Shown here: piece by piece, positions 18,955 through 25,751 of the stretch | Numbering within the stretch: position 1 is the first letter of the stretch | Layout: each line of letters starts with the position of its first letter | Source of the DNA: a virus | Lineage: Duplodnaviria; Heunggongvirae; Uroviricota; Caudoviricetes | Virus record (IMG/VR): IMGVR_UViG_3300049174_000031 | Reading direction: 5' to 3' (one strand) | DNA length: 27,649 bases | Translations under genes and position numbers: made by a program | Notes under the pieces: generated by a model | Told to the model about the DNA's origin: nothing | What the model saw: the letters and a program-made list of their open reading frames with translations, nothing else | The model's database searches: none

Positions 18955-20628
18955 TTACAGCCGGTCAGCGATGAAGTCGCTGATCAGGGTGGGCACCGCG
19001 GAATCGAACCCGGACACGTCCAGGCTGGAATCATCCCGCGGGTCGGCGATGGTGAACCCGGTCGCCGTCATGCCCACGACCACCTGCTTGACATCATGGC
19101 CAACCTGCTGGCGATACTGCGTCAACGCCTGGAACGGATGGGCCGCGTGGCCCGCCCAGGTCTCATTGTCGGTCAGGATGACAATGCCGTCGTAGTCCCG
19201 CTTGCTCTGCATCGACCACAGCGCCGGGAGGGCGCAGTCGGTCGAGCCGAACGGCAGCCCGGCCACGTACCGGGTCGCGTCATCGAGCCGACGCCGGGGG
19301 CTGATGTCCAGCCGGTCAATCGGGCCCCGCATGGTGTTCAGCACCCCAGAGCCACGGGAGCCGCGGTAGCTGTAGCCGCCGTAGCCGCCCGTGAAGCCGA
19401 CAACCTCGCAGCTGCCCGGCTTCTCGGTGGCCAGGGTGACCAACGCCAGGGCCGCGGAGGCCTCCCGGCAGGTGATCGACAAGTCGCCGATGGAGCTGCC
19501 CATCGACCCGGACACGTCCAGGGCCAGCAGAATGCGCTTATTGGTGGGCTCCACCGCGCCGTAAGCGCTGTAGAACGCCCCGTCGAGCGCGTCCACCAGT
19601 TGGGGGATCGGCGTCCAGGTGCTCTTGCCCCGGAAGCCCTGCCCGGACTGGTAGGTCCGCTGGGCGATCAGCACGTTGATCGGGTGGACCCGACCTCGCT
19701 TCAGCTTCTCCGCGTCACCGAGCTGGATGGCTACATCGGTCACCCAGTTGCCGGGCCCGCCGAACACGTTGGTCAGCCGCGGCAGCTGGCGCATCAGCGC
19801 CGTCTGCGGAATACCCTGCGCGAGCAGCGCCTCCCAGACCTGCGGGGCCTTGAGCGCGGTGTCGGGCAGCATCTCCCAGGTCAGGCCGTGACCACGATTG
19901 ATGATCTCGACCCAGTGCACCTGATTGCTGGCCGCCTTGGCGTCCAGGTAGTCCTGCACGATGGCCAGCTCTGCACAGTCGGCAAAGCCGGGCCCCAGCT
20001 CCTTGCCCGTGATGAAGTCAAAGAGCGCATCACGCTCAGTGCTCTTCGGCCCGTACTGACCCGGCTTGGTCAGCCGCAACAGGTCGCGGTGGGTCCAGTC
20101 CTCGCGGGCCCGGTACTTGGTGACCTGGTAGGCCAGCTTATCCACCGGCTTTTTGAGGTACCAGTCGGCCACCGCCTTGTTCAGCGTCGGCCCGCGCCCG
20201 CGGAACTGCTCCACGTACTTGTTGAACTGGAACACCATGGTGCCGGTGCGGCACACCCGGTGCATGACGGCCATCGCCTTCTGCCGGGTCTCCACGGCCT
20301 CCGCAGAGGCCGCGATGGCCAGCGCGAAGATGGCCTGCTTGTTCTTGGGAGCCCGCCCGGCCTCGCTCACCGCGAGGATGTCGGCGATCATCTCGTCGGG
20401 CTTATTGGCTGCCATCCGAAACACGACCTCGGCGCTCTGGCGAGTCAACTCGGCGGCAGACGTGTAATACGTGTTGCCGTCGGTACCCAGCGTCAGGAAC
20501 CGATGGAAGCGGGCCTCGTCACCGAGCTGGAACACGAAGCCGCCCGCGGTGTTTTTGACCTGATCGGCCCGCGCAGGCTTCGACTGCGGAGTCGAGCGCG
20601 TGTTGATCGAGGTCAGGATGTCAGCCAT
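18955..20628 (-). CDS. rsr: Ro60/Rsr ribonucleoprotein (TROVE + vWA)
   Basis: 557 aa; KNTAGGFVF, RFLTLGT, KYRAREDWTHRDLLRL, MPxTAL-like LPDTAL/IPQTALMRQL, MIDAS DVSGSM, TDCALP, LTDNET. Confidence 0.95.
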   Translation of the reverse strand: MADILTSINTRSTPQSKPARADQVKNTAGGFVFQLGDEARFHRFLTLGTDGNTYYTSAAELTRQSAEVVFRMAANKPDEMIADILAVSEAGRAPKNKQAIFALAIAASAEAVETRQKAMAVMHRVCRTGTMVFQFNKYVEQFRGRGPTLNKAVADWYLKKPVDKLAYQVTKYRAREDWTHRDLLRLTKPGQYGPKSTERDALFDFITGKELGPGFADCAELAIVQDYLDAKAASNQVHWVEIINRGHGLTWEMLPDTALKAPQVWEALLAQGIPQTALMRQLPRLTNVFGGPGNWVTDVAIQLGDAEKLKRGRVHPINVLIAQRTYQSGQGFRGKSTWTPIPQLVDALDGAFYSAYGAVEPTNKRILLALDVSGSMGSSIGDLSITCREASAALALVTLATEKPGSCEVVGFTGGYGGYSYRGSRGSGVLNTMRGPIDRLDISPRRRLDDATRYVAGLPFGSTDCALPALWSMQSKRDYDGIVILTDNETWAGHAAHPFQALTQYRQQVGHDVKQVVVGMTATGFTIADPRDDSSLDVSGFDSAVPTLISDFIADRL

Positions 20629-20668
20629 ATCTTCTTCTCCTTCTGGTTGTGGTTATTCAGTTGTTCAG

Positions 20669-20807
20669 AGGAACGGGCGGGATGGTGCAAACCGGCGTTT
20701 GAGGCAGGATTCCAACCTGCGACCTCCACCGTGTGGGTGGCGCTCTAGCACTGAGCTACTCCGATAATTTTGGAATCGGATAACCGATTCGCGTTCAGCT
20801 CGTTCCT
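20669..20807 (-). ncRNA. Y-RNA-like unit F: scaffold plus tRNA-Val-like domain in canonical order
   Basis: Terminal stem AGGAACG/CGUUCCU; scaffold AGCUGAA..UCGGUUA..CCGG..CCCGCC; D arm UAGCUCAG..AGAGC, CCACC-CACAC-GGUGG, T arm GCAGG-UUGGAAU-CCUGC. Confidence 0.75.
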
Positions 20808-20821
20808 ATGAAGTTGTTTCC

Positions 20822-20945
20822 AGGGCATGGGCGGGGCGTGCCGACCGGCTGCGGCAACTCTGACCCGTTTGCCTTGCACTCCCCAGAGCTGCGGGGAGAG
20901 GTCGTTACTGGTAGCTGATAACCGATTGACTTCAGCTCATGCCCT
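20822..20945 (-). ncRNA. Y-RNA-like unit E: scaffold plus non-tRNA insert
   Basis: Terminal stem AGGGCAUG/CAUGCCCU; same scaffold; no T or D loop. Confidence 0.7.
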
Positions 20946-20955
20946 ATGAAGTTGT

Positions 20956-21100
20956 GAGGGTGCGGGCGGGGGGTTGCAGACCGGAGACCCTTTCGGGCGC
21001 TTGCTCTACCGACCTGAGCTACAGGGCCGAAGCCCTGACGGGATTTGAACCCGCGACCTAGCGATTCACAGTTAACCGATCCACGTCAGCTCGCACCGTC
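20956..21100 (-). ncRNA. YrlA-like Y RNA unit D (circularly permuted tRNA mimic)
   Basis: T arm GCGGG-UUCAAAU-CCCGU, acceptor stem closed by UUCG, D arm UAGCUCAGGUCGGUAGAGC, anticodon stem CGCU/AGCG opening into the scaffold. Confidence 0.85.
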
Positions 21101-21110
21101 TTGAGTTGTC

Positions 21111-21253
21111 ATGGAGGGTGTGGGCGGGGGAGTGCAAACCGACGTTTAGTGACTTAGGCCGCTCGTCCACGGGCCGAAGCCCGGCGGGATTTGAACCCGC
21201 GTCCCTCTTTTGCAGAAAGTTAACCGACTTGCGTTCAGCTCACACCGCTCCAT
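21111..21253 (-). ncRNA. YrlA-like Y RNA unit C
   Basis: Hairpin CUUU-CUGCAAA-AGAG, T arm GCGGG-UUCAAAU-CCCGC, CGGGC-UUCG-GCCCG, D-like arm GAC-GAGCGGCCUAA-GUC. Confidence 0.8.
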
Positions 21254-21266
21254 GTTGAGTTGTCAG

Positions 21267-21396
21267 GTGGGGATGCGGGCAGGGGAGCGCCGACCGGGTA
21301 GCCCCGAAGGGCAATCAGAGACCAAGGCCTCTGACAGGACTCGAACCTGTAATAACCATTTGATAACCGATCATGCTTTCAGCTCGCATCCACCAC
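21267..21396 (-). ncRNA. YrlA-like Y RNA unit B
   Basis: T arm ACAGG-UUCGAGU-CCUGU, CAGAG/CUCUG closed acceptor-like stem, GCCC-UUCG-GGGC in place of the D arm. Confidence 0.8.
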
Positions 21397-21419
21397 ACTG
21401 TTCAGTTCTAAGCCAGGGT

Positions 21420-21489
21420 GAGTCGGGCGGGTTGGCGAGCACCGGGGTAATCATCCCAATTGATAACCGATGCCCATTCAGCTCGACTC
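21420..21489 (-). ncRNA. minimal Y-RNA-like unit A (scaffold only)
   Basis: GAGUCG/CGACUC stem, AGCUGAA, UGGGCAUCGG/CCGGUGCUCG, short apical loop; about 70 nt. Confidence 0.7.
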
Positions 21490-21548
21490 CCAAGCAGGAG
21501 TTCCAGAGTAGGCGGGCCGCTATAACTTTGCAATAGGTTTTCCCGAAG

Positions 21549-24500
21549 TCACTTCAGATAGTTCGGAGCAAACGTCCCGCCGTAGCAGTAGGAGTGCGGT
21601 GAAAGGATCACTGCCTGCACAGAGAACTCGCTGACCGGCTCGGTGCAGCTAACTACAGCCAGGCCAGCGTAGCGCAGCGGGGTCACGTCGTGCAGGAAGT
21701 CCACGCCGACGGTGCCCAGGCACACGTAGTAGCGGATCTGGGCCACGTCGCACCACAGATCGTTCAGGAACACCTCGTCGGGGTCGTCGCCCGTGCAGAC
21801 GAACTCCACGGTGTACTCCTGGTCCTCGGAGTCCGGGATCTCGATGAAGTGCGTGACGTACTCGTACCAGTAGCCCACCACCGGGGTGAAGGTCTCCTGG
21901 TGGATGTAGACGCCGTCGCTGATCCGACGCAGCCGCAGGATGATCTGGTTGTTGTTGGGGTAGGGCTTGTAGAAGATACAGCCGATGCGGAACAGACCGT
22001 TGGCGACGAAGTTGGTTTGCTGGCGCACCTTGACACCCGCCTCGGCGGCCCCGCCGACCCGGCTGAAGTGCAGTACCCGTTTGCCCTGGAACGTCCTGTC
22101 CGGGTCCACCGAGATGGCCACCACCGCTCGCGGGGTGCCCCAGACGATGCGCGGGTCGGCCCACTCGGCGAAGGTGTCACTCCACATGCCCGCCGGGAGC
22201 AGGTCGGGGATCAGCGTGGTGTAGTACGCCAGCGCGGTGTTGGAGATGTTGGTGTCGTTGGGGTCCTGCCGTGCCCACATGTCGTCGGAGCGCACCAGCC
22301 CGGTGTCGGTGAAGGTGCAGGTGAGCTTGGCGAAGGAGGAGGTGGTCTTGAAGCTGCGGAACACCTTGCCCCAGGTCTGGTCGGGGGTGTTGATCTCCAC
22401 GGTGTCGAACCAGACGGTGCCCGCGGTGGCATCGGAGGTGACCACCAGGGCCAGCCGCACATAGTTGGCCCCGGCCGGGACGGTGAACCCGTTGCCGTCG
22501 GCCGTGTTGGCGCTGATCTGCTCCCACACGTTGCCCACTGTGTCCGGGGGCGTGCTGGCGGGCCAGGGATTGTGGGTCAGGCTCACGGTCTCGGTGGAGA
22601 TCGGGGTGGTGTCCTCGTAGTTCAGGTTGTCGGCGGCCTTGTAGAAGTAAAGGGCCTGCAGCTGGATGGCCGGGCTGTTGGCCGTGGCGGCCAGCCCGGC
22701 CCAGCTGACCCACACGCTGGCGTCGAGGTGTGCTCCCGGCGAGGCGTCCATCGGATTCGACACCAGGACCTGCGGGCCCCCGTCGGGGGCCGCTGCAGCG
22801 GTGCCCAGGTACCAGTGCCCCAGATCGCCGTCCCAGGCCCACCTGCCGTCGTCCGGTCGCCAGTTGTTGATGTCGGTGTCGAAGTTGTGATTGACGAGCT
22901 TGTACTCGCGGCTGGCGGTGGTGATCGGCCCGGATTCCAGCGCGGTGATGTTGTTGGGGTGCCAGCCCTGAGTGTCGTTGTAGCGGCTGAAGGTGAAAAC
23001 GTCGGGGTCCTGGTAATCGACGTAGTAGGTGGAGAAAGGTTGGACTTCTCTGAGCCCGGCGAAGTAGGCCACCGCGGCGTCCCTGGTCACCGTTTTCACG
23101 TCGTAGCGGTGCACGCAGGTGGTCGAGAAGCGCAGCCTGGTCTCGGTAACCGACTTGCGGTGGGTGATCACGTCGGTCAGCGCGGTCAGCCCGTTCATCA
23201 CGGTGGCGGGCAGCCGCAGGTTGCCACCGGGGAACACCCACCAGTCGCTGCCCATCCGGGGCAGGGTGGACGGCACCAGCGCCTTGGCCAGCAGCGGGGT
23301 GAAGGAGTCGGCCGGGTTGGAGCCGTTGGTGACCGGCACCATCGAGGAGGCTGCCAGCGAGGAGGACCCGGCCTGCACCACCGGGGCACTGGTGGCCACG
23401 CTGATGGTCTGGGCGGCCAGGATGCTGGGCGACAGCGGGGAGCGCCGAAAGATCCACGGGCTGGACACCTCGGTGCGGGTCTGCGCGGTCAGGCTGGTGT
23501 TGACGGTGTTGGGCAGGGTGGTGGTGTTGTAGCCCGGCCCGGCCGTCACTGTCATCGGGGTCACCGTCTGCCCGTAGATCGAGTTGATCGCGTTGTTGAC
23601 GGTCTGCGGGTTGAGCCAGTTGACACTACCCAGGCCGCTCAGTAGCACATCGGCCCCCAGGCTCAGCAGCCCCGGCACCCCGGTTTTCTTGGGCCCCGCG
23701 ACGGTGATGTCCTGGCTCACACTCACCGGGTAGATCTGGTAGGAGGTCTGGATACCCGCGTCGTAGACCGGGTAGGGCTCCTCGGTCAACCCGCTGAACT
23801 CCAACTGCAGGTACTTGGCGCTGATCTGCTGGGGGAAGTACAGCTTGCCCTTCTGGGTCATGTAGTCGCGCCAGATCGGGGTCCAGGTTTTCTCGGAGAA
23901 GTTGGAGGCGTGCGATCCTCCGGTGCCGTGCTCCTGCATGGTCCAGGCCGCCGCGTAGATAGCATTGTCCAGGCTGGTGGACGGGACGTTGCCGTAGGCG
24001 TCGGGCATCACCGGATCGGGGCTGACGTAGACCTTGGGGTTGGCCATGAAGCTGGGCAGGGCGGGGGCCCAGTTTTCCAGCTTGACCACATGGGCGGTGA
24101 ACAGCCCGCGGAAGTCGTGGAAGCCGATGGTGCCGTCCAGGGTCATCTGGGTGGGCAGCGCGGGCGACGGCGAGGTCAGGGTGCCCAGCACGGTGCCGTT
24201 GGGGATGGTCACCTCAATGAACACCGTGGACGGCGAGTAGCCCCAGCCCACCATGATGCGCAGCGGCACGTACTGCTGCGGCAGCGGGGACAGCGGGCAG
24301 GTGAACAGCGGCAGGGTGGTGGTGCCGTCGGTCAGTTCCAGGCAGATCTCGGCCGCGCCCACGTCGTAGAAGATCTTGGGGTAGTACAGCCCGACGGTGG
24401 ACGTGGTGGGGATGACCTCGAACAGCACCGGATTCTGCGGCGGCCCACCGGCCTCTCCACCGGCCACGGTGGTGGTCACTGTGACGGTGGTCCCTGAAGG

Positions 24501-25751
24501 TGTCAGCCCGGCCGCGTTGGGAGTCAACTCGGTCAGGGCCTGCCCGCCCAGGTTGTTGGTGAAGGTCAACGTCCAGGGCCCACCGGCCAGTCCGTTCACC
24601 ACAACATTGCCGATGCCGATGGCGGGCATCGCGGTCAGGATGGTCTGCAGTCCCGAGGCGGTGGAGTCGAAGGGGATGTCGGCACTGGTCTCCCCGCCGA
24701 AGCTCAGCGTGAAGTGGCCCCCGGTGGGGGCCCCGGTGATCTCGACAACCTGCTCGGCGTCGGAGAAGCCCGCGCCGAAGTCGGGAGCCCACTCGATGCC
24801 GATCCAGGTGTCCTGGGACACCAGCGGTCCCCAGACCATGCCGAACTCGTAGTCGGAGGTGCCGGTGTCGGCCGAGGTGTCCCAGCGGCCCTTGCCCTGC
24901 TCCCACTGGGTGTTCTCGTCCAGGGTCGAGACCGCGGTGACCGGGGAGAGCTTGCGGGTGCCCACCGAGTCGTCGTTGGAGTAGTAGAGGTTCAGCGCCT
25001 GGCCGGTGTAGACGGGGTCGATGTAGAGCGTGTCCATCAGCGACGGGGTGCCGTCGTTGTGGCGCACGTCGAGGTAGAGGCTCACCACCGCGGCCGGGTC
25101 GGGCATCGGCATCGAGCGCCAGTAGGTGATCGGGGCGTTGTCGATGGCCTTCGCGGCATCCCAGTCCTTGATGTAGGACGTGAAGGTGTTGCCGATGGGG
25201 TCCTGGGCCGGTTCGATGCCCTGCGTGCCGTCGCTACGGGTGTAGATGTTGCGGCGTATCAACCCGTTTCGCATGCCCACCACGTAGGGCTGATTGCCCA
25301 CCAGCGGGTCGTAGGTGCGGGTGAAGCGCCACTGCAGCGCCTTGGCCACGAAGGGATAGCAGTAGAAGTGCGCGGTGTACCAGGCCTGGGCCTGGGAGAT
25401 GGACAGGTTCAGGGTGACCGGCACCCGACTCTCATCGAGGACCTGCCGCCAGTTGTTGAGCCGGTCGAGGTACCACAGCTCGACATAGCAGCTCACCCTC
25501 AGCGCGTCGAAGCCGATCTCCGAAACACTGAGCGGCAGTTTGAAATTGACCGTCAGCACATCGGTCAGTGGCTTGGACTGGGCAGTGGAGCTGGGAGTGC
25601 GCGGCTGGGAGAACCACATCCGCAGGGCGGGAGGCTGGACCACCTGTGGAGTGTTGGGCTGATTCTGGCAGTTGCCGATCACCTGCTGGATCAGGTTGTA
25701 CAGCGCCAGCGGGATGCAGAAGTCAACGTACATACCGTCGATGGCGGCCAT
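21549..25751 (-). CDS. large minor tail / baseplate-associated structural protein, about 1400 aa
   Basis: Start MAAIDG at 25751 (TGATG overlap). Thr/Pro/Gly-rich and beta-rich; contains the actinophage tail Ig-like module TGGHFTLSFGGETSADIPFD..GGPWTLTF and a CBM-like LVNHNFDT..W segment. Confidence 0.75.
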   Translation of the reverse strand: MAAIDGMYVDFCIPLALYNLIQQVIGNCQNQPNTPQVVQPPALRMWFSQPRTPSSTAQSKPLTDVLTVNFKLPLSVSEIGFDALRVSCYVELWYLDRLNNWRQVLDESRVPVTLNLSISQAQAWYTAHFYCYPFVAKALQWRFTRTYDPLVGNQPYVVGMRNGLIRRNIYTRSDGTQGIEPAQDPIGNTFTSYIKDWDAAKAIDNAPITYWRSMPMPDPAAVVSLYLDVRHNDGTPSLMDTLYIDPVYTGQALNLYYSNDDSVGTRKLSPVTAVSTLDENTQWEQGKGRWDTSADTGTSDYEFGMVWGPLVSQDTWIGIEWAPDFGAGFSDAEQVVEITGAPTGGHFTLSFGGETSADIPFDSTASGLQTILTAMPAIGIGNVVVNGLAGGPWTLTFTNNLGGQALTELTPNAAGLTPSGTTVTVTTTVAGGEAGGPPQNPVLFEVIPTTSTVGLYYPKIFYDVGAAEICLELTDGTTTLPLFTCPLSPLPQQYVPLRIMVGWGYSPSTVFIEVTIPNGTVLGTLTSPSPALPTQMTLDGTIGFHDFRGLFTAHVVKLENWAPALPSFMANPKVYVSPDPVMPDAYGNVPSTSLDNAIYAAAWTMQEHGTGGSHASNFSEKTWTPIWRDYMTQKGKLYFPQQISAKYLQLEFSGLTEEPYPVYDAGIQTSYQIYPVSVSQDITVAGPKKTGVPGLLSLGADVLLSGLGSVNWLNPQTVNNAINSIYGQTVTPMTVTAGPGYNTTTLPNTVNTSLTAQTRTEVSSPWIFRRSPLSPSILAAQTISVATSAPVVQAGSSSLAASSMVPVTNGSNPADSFTPLLAKALVPSTLPRMGSDWWVFPGGNLRLPATVMNGLTALTDVITHRKSVTETRLRFSTTCVHRYDVKTVTRDAAVAYFAGLREVQPFSTYYVDYQDPDVFTFSRYNDTQGWHPNNITALESGPITTASREYKLVNHNFDTDINNWRPDDGRWAWDGDLGHWYLGTAAAAPDGGPQVLVSNPMDASPGAHLDASVWVSWAGLAATANSPAIQLQALYFYKAADNLNYEDTTPISTETVSLTHNPWPASTPPDTVGNVWEQISANTADGNGFTVPAGANYVRLALVVTSDATAGTVWFDTVEINTPDQTWGKVFRSFKTTSSFAKLTCTFTDTGLVRSDDMWARQDPNDTNISNTALAYYTTLIPDLLPAGMWSDTFAEWADPRIVWGTPRAVVAISVDPDRTFQGKRVLHFSRVGGAAEAGVKVRQQTNFVANGLFRIGCIFYKPYPNNNQIILRLRRISDGVYIHQETFTPVVGYWYEYVTHFIEIPDSEDQEYTVEFVCTGDDPDEVFLNDLWCDVAQIRYYVCLGTVGVDFLHDVTPLRYAGLAVVSCTEPVSEFSVQAVILSPHSYCYGGTFAPNYLK

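What the first reader, a model, noticed from the sequence alone, without database searches (positions are those of the whole stretch)
20659..21491. Tandem array of six Y-RNA-like genes: one constant Ro60-tether scaffold, six different cargo domains
Seen directly: six units of 70-145 nt, each with its own terminal stem (different sequence, pairing retained) and the same core, 5'-AGCUGA(A)..UCGGUUA-[insert]-(C/U)CGG..CC(C/U)GCC-3'. The core can form a bulged helix like a Ro60-binding site. The inserts differ: none (A), T arm with closed acceptor and a UUCG hairpin (B), permuted tRNA with an extra anticodon hairpin (C), classic YrlA permutation (D), non-tRNA fold (E), canonical-order tRNA (F). 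The array ends 40 nt before rsr. Established: bacterial and some phage rsr genes have adjacent YrlA tRNA mimics, and Y RNA tethers Rsr to effectors such as PNPase. What looks new is the number of units and the plug-in diversity, suggesting that one protein forms six RNPs with different targets or partners.
Basis: partly seen in the sequence, partly recalled or inferred. Interest (0 to 1): 0.88.

Follow-up and report, generated by a model that had tools for sequence, protein, structure and literature searches.

The report
Six-unit Y RNA array beside phage Ro60
An actinobacterial phage carries six different small Y-type RNA genes on one shared protein-binding scaffold just upstream of its Ro60 (Rsr) gene; the array is real, but arrays of three to seven units are common in related phages, so it is a good example of a poorly described pattern and not a one-off.

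Summary
On the minus strand, 21494 to 20664, lie six tandem units. A covariance model of the scaffold finds all six (44-67 bits) and nothing else in the window. All 96 scaffold base-pair cells pair, and six pairs show compensatory changes. The array ends 36 nt before an intact rsr gene (TROVE + vWA).

The scaffold belongs to the same family as the Rsr-bound YrlA/YrlB of Mycobacterium smegmatis and the YrlA of phage ET08 (Chen 2014). Unit D hits Rfam YrlA at 50 bits, which is below threshold, as are the YrlA matches in the comparison phage loci, ET08 included.

The novelty claim is weaker than stated. The same model finds six units in two GenBank phages (prophiGD43A-5, Mareelih) and in a 75%-identical IMG/VR relative. 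In 79 IMG/VR Rsr loci it finds up to seven units, with three the commonest count. This scan has already reported such arrays many times on other DNA (326 notes, up to nine units). I found no paper describing them, but two key reviews were not readable.

Units A-D are conserved in three relatives. E and F are lineage-specific. F is a rare non-permuted tRNA-like cargo, seen in one other phage. E has no supported fold. That the six units form distinct particles with different partners is untested.

The parts
21505..21533 (-). Promoter-like block TTGCAA-17 nt-TACTCT, 10 nt upstream of unit A. It lies just after the stop codon (21549-21551) of the minor tail protein gene.
   Evidence: The block AAAACCT(A/G)TTG...TA(C/A)(T/C)CT is conserved in the relatives L011 and L042. 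The tool's sigma-70 scan does not call it, so this is inference from conservation plus the actinobacterial TANNNT -10 form.
21414..21494 (-). Unit A: scaffold plus a short hairpin with a GGGAUGA loop (minimal Y RNA).
   Evidence: R2 67.3 bits. Orthologues are present in L011 and L042. The same loop motif occurs in a Farewell unit and an ET08 unit.
21266..21395 (-). Unit B: scaffold plus a T arm, a 7-bp closed acceptor-like stem, and a UUCG hairpin where YrlA has its D arm.
   Evidence: R2 58.0 bits. It is 82% identical to L011 unit B, and the acceptor-like stem is replaced by a different paired sequence. A similar T-arm-only unit occurs in prophiGD43A-5, in genome G114, and as YrlB in M. smegmatis (Chen 2014).
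21111..21251 (-). Unit C: a YrlA-type permuted tRNA-like module. In order: V-position hairpin, T arm, closed acceptor-like stem, and a long D-like arm.
   Evidence: R2 58.3 bits and a partial Rfam YrlA match of 18.5 bits. In three relatives the T stem and acceptor-like stem keep pairing through double changes, and the hairpin loop UUUCUGCAAAAG is invariant.
20953..21102 (-). Unit D: classic YrlA-type tRNA mimic (T arm, closed acceptor stem, canonical D arm), plus an extra GAAA-loop hairpin absent from relatives.
   Evidence: Rfam YrlA RF02553 matches 20975-21082 over the full model at 50 bits, E 5.8e-10 in the local search, against a gathering score of 69. R2 52.6 bits. Stems covary with L011 and L042.
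20818..20948 (-). Unit E: intact scaffold with a 69-nt insert of unknown fold. One robust hairpin is present (CUCCCC...GGGGAG).
   Evidence: R2 44.1 bits. The insert has no similar sequence in any fetched locus and is no more stable than shuffles, z = 0.07. Its scaffold arms are most like those of unit F and of L011's last unit.
20664..20811 (-). Unit F: scaffold plus a hairpin, then a tRNA-like domain in canonical order (D arm, anticodon-like arm with a 5-nt loop, T arm), joined through a 3-bp remnant of acceptor stem.
   Evidence: R2 58.5 bits. Rfam tRNA matches 20696-20765 at 39.5 bits, gathering score 29, but ARAGORN does not call it. Of the 33 surveyed long units that have a recognisable T arm, F is the only one whose T arm lies late in the unit, after the D and anticodon-like arms. 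A homologous unit with compensated stems lies at L078 682-831.
20637..20641 (-). Shine-Dalgarno AGGAG, 8 nt before the rsr start codon.
   Evidence: Read from the sequence. CCAGAAGGAGAAGA is conserved in L011.
18955..20628 (-). rsr: Ro60 orthologue, 557 aa.
   Evidence: Pfam TROVE and vWA_Ro60. PHROG 850 RNA-binding protein, 1.5e-88. PDB 2NVO (D. radiodurans Rsr) 1.7e-92 and 1YVP (Xenopus Ro60) 2.5e-87.
21549..25751 (-). Context: minor tail protein gene that ends just before the array's promoter-like block.
   Evidence: PHROG 2840 minor tail protein, E = 0. The gene upstream of it is DUF7297 / virion structural protein.

Best explanation
The region is an operon of six Y RNA genes followed by rsr.

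A conserved promoter-like block just after the tail genes probably drives one transcript through the six units and into rsr. No terminator-like site lies between them. Host RNases would then cut this precursor in the short A/C-rich spacers, which carry the recurring motif ACAACU.

Each released RNA closes with its own 6-8 bp terminal stem. Above the stem sits the constant bulged helix: 5' box GAGCUGAA facing the C-rich 3' box CC(C/U)GCCC, then a variable 3-bp step, then UCGG/CCGG. This helix is the binding site for the phage Rsr ring.

The distal end differs by unit:
- A: a mini-hairpin.
- B, C, D: three variants of the permuted tRNA-like YrlA module.
- F: a non-permuted tRNA-like module.
- E: an insert of unknown fold.

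By analogy with Deinococcus, Salmonella and Thermus phage phiLo, the distal module would dock a second factor, such as host PNPase or a tRNA-recognising enzyme, onto Rsr. The phage would thereby re-aim host RNA decay or tRNA metabolism during infection.

Shown here: the units, their scaffold structure, family membership, conservation in relatives, and linkage and co-orientation with rsr.
Inferred: transcription, processing, Rsr binding, and any partner.
For: - Six scaffold copies where none is expected by chance, and six model hits only there.
- Scaffold pairing with compensatory changes. Within the window, 96/96 cells pair. Over 23 units from 9 sources, 95.6% pair against 31-42% when slid, 11 of 16 pairs show double changes, and 0 of 500 shuffles reach the observed score.
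- Unit D matches Rfam YrlA over the full model at 50 bits. The YrlA matches in the eight comparison phage loci that have one score 35-52 bits, and ET08's scores 37.4.
- The M. smegmatis YrlA and YrlB northern probes printed in Chen 2014 map onto the scaffold's 3' box and onto the UUACC/UAUC start of the cargo in units found by the same model. Those RNAs co-precipitate with Rsr and come from one precursor (PMC4201824).
- Whole-record searches of three phage records give hits only next to rsr. All 179 hits in 79 IMG/VR loci are on the rsr strand.
- Units A-D and the promoter-like block are conserved in two relatives, with covarying cargo stems.
- rsr is intact.
- A phage Ro60 has been shown to bind two upstream Y-like RNAs and host PNPase (PMC12135203).
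Against: - No expression, processing or binding data exist for this phage.
- No unit reaches the Rfam YrlA gathering score.
- The Rsr-site motif differs from the published consensus at position 3 (U for C) in all six units.
- The sigma-70 scan finds no promoter.
- E's cargo shows no sign of a selected fold, and neither E nor F has an orthologue in the two closest relatives. They could be recent, neutral or decaying copies.
- The covariation counts use alignments fitted to the model.
Confidence: 0.78

Rival explanations
1. Only part of the array works. Units A-D are the functional Y RNAs. E and F are recent duplicates of the rsr-proximal minimal unit that picked up junk or a stray tRNA fragment, and are neutral or decaying.
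For: - E and F have no orthologues in L011 or L042, whose rsr-proximal units are minimal or degenerate.
- The scaffold arms of E and F are each other's best match, and both follow the same spacer ACAACUUCAUAGG.
- E's insert is no more stable than shuffled sequence and matches nothing.
- L042's last unit is visibly degenerate.
Against: - Both scaffolds are fully intact: all 16 pairs are kept, at 44 and 58 bits.
- F's module recurs in a phage whose Rsr is only 51% identical. Its anticodon-like and T stems are compensated there, which argues for selection.
Confidence: 0.12
2. The scaffold is a processing and stabilising cassette for tRNA-like cargo, and not an Rsr site. The closing stems and internal loops would be handles for host RNases or another protein that release and protect the cargo RNAs. 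Linkage to rsr would then reflect a shared pathway only.
For: - In Gordonia phages Mareelih and GMA2, units are interleaved with genuine tRNA genes downstream of rsr.
- M. smegmatis YrlA is cut by RNase P and receives CCA (PMC4201824).
- Spacers share a recurring motif.
Against: - Minimal units carry no tRNA-like cargo yet keep the scaffold best. They score highest.
- The scaffold is never found away from rsr in whole phage records.
- Its 5' box corresponds to the motif that Rsr protects in Deinococcus Yrn1 (PMC4201824).
Confidence: 0.05
3. The array acts mainly in cis as a long structured leader. Rsr would bind the unprocessed transcript to set its own translation or mRNA stability.
For: No terminator-like site lies between the array and rsr, and the last unit ends 36 nt before the start codon and 22 nt before its Shine-Dalgarno.
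Against: - Six different cargo modules, conserved with covariation, are not needed for autoregulation.
- In M. smegmatis the homologous RNAs are processed to discrete species.
- In Mareelih most units lie downstream of rsr.
- This role could coexist with the main explanation.
Confidence: 0.05

Closest known systems
YrlA / YrlB of Mycobacterium smegmatis and YrlA of mycobacteriophage ET08 (Chen et al. 2014, PMC4201824; Rfam RF02553)
   Same: - Same scaffold family. Model R2 finds ET08's published YrlA plus two flanking units, and finds a YrlA+YrlB-like pair in an actinobacterial genome that matches the M. smegmatis probes.
- Encoded just 5' of rsr on the same strand.
- Permuted tRNA-like cargo (T arm, closed acceptor stem, D arm), plus a T-arm-only partner.
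- Two RNAs processed from one precursor.
   Different: - Six units here, against the two described.
- Position 3 of the Rsr-site motif is U, not C.
- One unit carries a tRNA-like domain in canonical order, and one carries a non-tRNA insert.
- The paper reported only the best YrlA hit per genome, so it did not catalogue arrays.
Unannotated arrays in public phage genomes: Mycobacterium phage prophiGD43A-5 (MW584167), Gordonia phage Mareelih (OP820470), IMG/VR UViG_3300047160_003616
   Same: Six scaffold units each, with mixed cargo types, next to rsr. The IMG/VR contig has orthologues of units A-D in the same order, and the same promoter-like block.
   Different: - The rsr-proximal units differ. 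They are minimal in the IMG/VR relative.
- Mareelih splits its units, two upstream and four among tRNA genes downstream.
- Some units are annotated there as tRNAs or covered by small hypothetical ORFs.
Thermus phage phiLo Ro60 with Yrl1 and Yrl2 (PMC12135203)
   Same: A phage Ro60 with Y-like RNAs encoded directly upstream. Binding to the RNAs and assembly with host PNPase were shown in vitro. This is the functional model borrowed here.
   Different: Two simple hairpin RNAs with a CGAA motif, no tRNA-like cargo, a different lineage, and no array.
Deinococcus radiodurans Yrn1/Yrn2 with Rsr and PNPase (RYPER)
   Same: Several small RNAs upstream of rsr. A bulged terminal helix binds Rsr, and the distal module tethers an exoribonuclease.
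   Different: Both strands of the metazoan-type Ro site are kept there, and the tRNA-like features are arranged differently. No partner is known for the phage RNAs.

Membership tests
YrlA (Rfam RF02553) | Scores at or above the Rfam gathering threshold (69 bits) | tested here: not met
   Unit D scores 50 bits and unit C 18.5 bits. The YrlA matches in eight comparison phage loci, ET08's published one among them, also fail, at 35-52 bits. The threshold therefore does not discriminate in this lineage.
YrlA (Rfam RF02553) | Permuted tRNA-like module: T arm 5' of a closed acceptor-like stem, followed by a D arm | tested here: met
   D has GCGGG-UUCAAAU-CCCGU, then a UUCG-capped stem, then a standard D arm GUAGCUCAGG..GGUAGAGC. 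C is the same with a longer D-like arm. B lacks the D arm. A, E and F do not fit.
YrlA (Rfam RF02553) | Encoded within 4 kb of rsr on the same strand (criterion of Chen 2014) | tested here: met
   All six units lie 36-866 nt upstream of rsr on the minus strand.
YrlA (Rfam RF02553) | 5'-strand motif GNCGAAN0-1G (putative Rsr site) | tested here: inconclusive
   Five units have GCUGAA(N0-1)G and unit D has GCUGACG, so position 3 is U, not C. That position is C, U or A in related phages, as expected of a bulged base.
Y RNA (Ro60-bound small RNA) | 5' and 3' ends pair into a stem that carries a conserved bulged helix | tested here: met
   16-bp scaffold with internal loops. 100% of cells pair in the six units, and 95.6% in 23 units, with compensatory changes.
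Y RNA (Ro60-bound small RNA) | Physically bound and stabilised by Ro60/Rsr | not testable with these tools
   Indirect only. The same scaffold family includes M. smegmatis YrlA and YrlB, which co-precipitate with Rsr (PMC4201824).
tRNA (considered for unit F) | Cloverleaf with 7-bp acceptor stem and 7-nt anticodon loop | tested here: not met
   Rfam tRNA 39.5 bits (gathering score 29), but three acceptor pairs are flagged as non-standard and the anticodon loop is 5 nt. ARAGORN makes no call. It is a tRNA-like domain, not a decoding tRNA.

The most novel reading that the evidence does not exclude
The array would be a modular adaptor kit. One phage Rsr ring is loaded with six interchangeable RNAs, each aiming it at a different host partner or substrate class. 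Cargo modules would be gained, lost and swapped at the rsr-proximal end of the array as hosts change. Unit F would be an 'orthogonal' tRNA body whose altered elbow (C19 with G56) and shortened anticodon loop let it engage some tRNA-binding factors while escaping others.
Probability: 0.2. Interest if true: 0.7.

Novelty: new variant of a known kind. Interest (0 to 1): 0.4.

Why it matters
Bacterial and phage Y RNAs have been described as one or two RNAs per rsr gene, and the role of their tRNA-like end is still open. This locus and its relatives show that actinophage Rsr usually comes with a battery of RNAs on one scaffold. Their cargo ends evolve quickly at the rsr-proximal end. That gives a natural set of matched RNAs (same protein handle, different cargo) for asking what the cargo binds. 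It also suggests that current annotation mislabels or misses many of these genes: Rfam YrlA fell below threshold for every phage unit tested here, and some units appear to be annotated as tRNAs or small ORFs. The value lies in the class more than in this example. The window's array is near the top of the size range, but it is neither the largest nor unique.

Tried and rejected
- Rfam at gathering thresholds finds only unit F's tRNA-like domain and an unrelated suppressor tRNA.
- blastn of the array against 50,697 phage records finds nothing. No Rsr in that collection is 60% identical or more.
- The exact 5' pattern is absent from ten other phage loci, so a structure model was needed.
- Model R1, built from 8 minimal units, missed unit E. 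With filters off it scored the long units poorly. The iterated model R2 fixed this.
- No whole genome is held for the window.
- The Rsr search of bacterial genomes gave only distant loci. A scan of 151 Actinomycetota genomes with R2 found one genome with two units, but the filters were strict, so this is not a real census.
- The sigma-70 and terminator scan gave no promoter, and only one terminator-like site, inside rsr, which is probably chance.
- I considered reading C's first hairpin as a retained Cys anticodon arm. Its loop is invariant in three relatives, but it sits at YrlA's V-arm position, so I leave it as a V-position hairpin with a conserved loop.
- I considered unit D's CUGUGAA as a His anticodon loop. 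It is not conserved in the relatives (CAGUUAA), so I rejected it.
- I considered the C19-G56 swap in unit F as proof of an L-shaped fold. The homologous L078 unit has the ordinary UUCGAGU T loop and no clear GG in its D loop, so it stays a lead only.
- The reviews by Sim and Wolin (2018), Boccitto and Wolin (2019) and Sim et al. (2020) could not be read. I therefore cannot exclude that arrays are mentioned there.

Full report
**What is there**

The feature lies on the minus strand. Reading 21560 down to 20600 shows six consecutive units. Each unit has four parts:
- a unit-specific 5' stem strand;
- the box GAGCUGA(A), then 3-9 nt, then UCGGUUA;
- an insert of about 25 to 90 nt;
- then CCGG, GC, CC(C/U)GCCC and the complementary 3' stem strand.

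The pattern GAGCTGA-N3-9-TCGGTTA occurs six times in the window, all in this region. None is expected in 100 dinucleotide-preserving shuffles.

The array ends 36 nt before the ATG of a 557-aa ORF (18955-20628, minus). That ORF has Pfam TROVE and Ro60-vWA domains. It matches the solved structures of Deinococcus Rsr and Xenopus Ro60 at E of about 1e-90.

Upstream lie a minor tail protein gene and a virion structural protein gene. Earlier notes of this scan place the window in a large actinophage.

**Structure of the scaffold**

I aligned eight short units from this window, an IMG/VR relative and three GenBank phages. RNAalifold gave a 16-bp structure:
- a terminal stem;
- a one-base gap, then a GC/GC step;
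- an internal loop, UGAA facing C-rich bases;
- a variable 3-bp step;
- UCGG/CCGG.

From this I built model R1 and iterated to R2 on 23 units.

On those 23 units, 95.6% of pair cells are standard pairs, against 31-42% when the 3' partner is slid by 1-3 columns. Eleven of 16 pairs show changes on both sides, and no shuffle in 500 reaches the observed covariation score.

On the six window units alone, all 96 cells pair and six pairs have double changes. Both alignments were fitted to the model, which favours it. The slid controls and the terminal-stem substitutions visible by eye point the same way.

R2 finds the six units at 44-67 bits and nothing else in the window at E<=0.01.

**What family it is**

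- Rfam YrlA matches unit D over the whole model at 50 bits. This is below the gathering score of 69.
- That shortfall is usual here. Eight of the ten comparison phage loci had a YrlA match, at 35-52 bits. ET08, which Chen et al. 2014 used as a representative, scores 37.4.
- The conserved 5' box reads GCUGAA(N)G in five units. This is the published putative Rsr-site motif GNCGAAN0-1G with U at position 3. That position is C in ET08 and Farewell and A in prophiGD43A-5, as expected of a bulged base.
- The northern probes for M. smegmatis YrlA and YrlB printed in that paper map, in RNA sense, onto the 3' box plus closing stem and onto the start of the cargo of units found by R2. These include a two-unit locus in an actinobacterial genome that looks orthologous to the M. 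smegmatis pair.
- Those M. smegmatis RNAs co-precipitate with Rsr and are cut from one precursor (PMC4201824).

So the window's units belong to a scaffold family with experimentally Rsr-bound members. Binding here remains an inference.

**The cargo ends**

- A carries a 4-bp hairpin with a GGGAUGA loop. The loop recurs in units of Farewell and ET08, so it is a small conserved module, not an empty unit.
- B has a T arm and a 7-bp closed acceptor-like stem. A UUCG hairpin sits where YrlA has its D arm.
- C and D have a T arm, a closed acceptor-like stem and a D arm, in the permuted YrlA order. C also has a hairpin at YrlA's V-arm position, and its loop is invariant in three relatives. D's supposed anticodon-like sequence is not conserved.
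- F is different. After a hairpin it has a D arm, an anticodon-like arm with a 5-nt loop, and a T arm, in canonical tRNA order. These are joined to the scaffold through a 3-bp remnant of acceptor stem. Rfam tRNA scores it 39.5 bits, but ARAGORN does not call it.
- I surveyed 37 long units from many loci. Of the 33 with a recognisable T arm, F is the only one with the T arm late in the unit. A wider pattern search found one homologue, in IMG/VR contig UViG_3300047160_018504. It has the same layout, with compensated anticodon-like and T stems.
- F's T loop is UUGGAAU and its D loop AGUGCUA. This would swap the G19-C56 tertiary pair to C19-G56. The homologue does not show this swap, so it is only a lead.
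- E's 69-nt insert matches nothing in about 125 loci and folds no better than shuffled sequence, z = 0.07.

**Relatives and evolution**

Two close relatives were found:
- IMG/VR UViG_3300047160_003616 (Rsr 75% identical);
- a 2.2-kb soil metagenome contig (82% identical over the Rsr N-terminus).

Both have the same promoter-like block and orthologues of A, B, C and D in order. The cargo stems are kept through double changes.

Their rsr-proximal units differ. They are two minimal units in the first relative. In the second they are one minimal unit, one degenerate unit and a scaffold-less stretch.

The window's E and F are each other's best match in the scaffold arms, and both follow the same spacer. 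This suggests duplication of the last unit followed by acquisition of different inserts. That is an inference with modest support.

**How common arrays are**

Model R2 finds the following:
- six units directly upstream of rsr in Mycobacterium phage prophiGD43A-5;
- six around rsr in Gordonia phage Mareelih;
- three in ET08;
- two each in Farewell and Phabba.

Whole-record searches of prophiGD43A-5, Mareelih and the IMG/VR relative give no hits away from rsr.

In 79 further IMG/VR Rsr loci there are 179 hits, all on the rsr strand. I tallied them by hand:

| Units per locus | 0 | 1 | 2 | 3 | 4 | 5 | 6 | 7 |
|---|---|---|---|---|---|---|---|---|
| Number of loci | 13 | 18 | 12 | 20 | 8 | 5 | 1 | 2 |

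These are lower bounds, because of the 2.5-kb flanks, cut contigs and the E<=0.001 limit. Six units is therefore high but not exceptional.

This scan has also reported phage Ro60 genes with arrays of four to nine Y-like RNAs on other DNA many times: 326 notes in at least 294 genomes.

I found no paper describing such arrays. Chen 2014 reported only the best YrlA hit per genome. Two reviews that might mention arrays are not held.

**How it probably works**

A conserved TTGCAA-17-TACTCT block, 10 nt before unit A, and the absence of any terminator-like site before rsr suggest one transcript covering the six units and rsr. The spacers share ACAACU-type motifs, which may be cleavage sites.

Released RNAs would bind Rsr through the constant helix and present their cargo to a second factor. 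In Deinococcus and Salmonella that factor is PNPase, and a Thermus phage Ro60 assembles with its two Y-like RNAs and host PNPase in vitro (PMC12135203). tRNA-like cargoes could instead, or also, engage tRNA-processing and modification enzymes, as shown for Salmonella and M. smegmatis YrlA.

Which partner each unit recruits, and whether E and F are functional, cannot be decided from sequence.

**Verdict**

The claim of unusual number and diversity is not upheld against public sequence, though the pattern appears undescribed in the literature I could read. I rate it a new variant of a known kind, of moderate interest. Most of the value lies in the class as a whole and in the rare non-permuted tRNA-like cargo of unit F.

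Noticed in passing
L005 1747-1825 (MW584167 26001-26079); L003 5227-5315 (OP820470 88231-88319): Features annotated as tRNA-Thr(tgt) in prophiGD43A-5 and tRNA-Leu(gag) in Mareelih overlap YrlA-type Y RNA units. Rfam YrlA scores them 39 and 52 bits, and R2 also hits them. They are probably misannotated tRNA mimics.
   Followed up: partly
L002 2297-2470 (ET08 gp219): A 57-aa hypothetical protein is annotated across two of ET08's three Y RNA units (2191-2347 and 2369-2451). It is probably a spurious ORF. The window's plus-strand ORF 21210-21536 overlaps the array in the same way.
   Followed up: no
L006 4991-5047 (Gordonia phage GMA2): A Pistol ribozyme match scores 56.8 bits, above the gathering score of 34.5. 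It lies directly after tRNA-Trp, in the tRNA/Y-RNA cluster downstream of rsr.
   Followed up: no
L042 1297-1385: Between units C and D of this close relative lies an 89-nt stretch without the scaffold. It contains a T-arm-like hairpin (GCAGUUCGACUCUGC). It may be a remnant or a free-standing tRNA-like piece.
   Followed up: no
window 20950-20965, 20812-20826, 20650-20665, 21252-21265, 21103-21110: The spacers between units share ACAACU(C/U)(A/C)A. The 13-nt string ACAACUUCAUAGG precedes both E and F, and a near copy precedes the last unit in both relatives. This may be a processing signal, or a trace of duplication.
   Followed up: partly
window 13205-13277 and 13339-13713 (minus strand): An amber-suppressor-type tRNA (anticodon CUA; Rfam tRNA 49 bits) lies next to a PTH2-like peptidyl-tRNA hydrolase gene. 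The phage therefore invests in tRNA biology beyond the Y RNAs.
   Followed up: no
L003 4887-5532 (Mareelih); L006 4683-4910 (GMA2): In these Gordonia phages, Y RNA units sit downstream of rsr, interleaved with a tmRNA and genuine tRNA genes. They probably share the tRNA processing machinery.
   Followed up: partly
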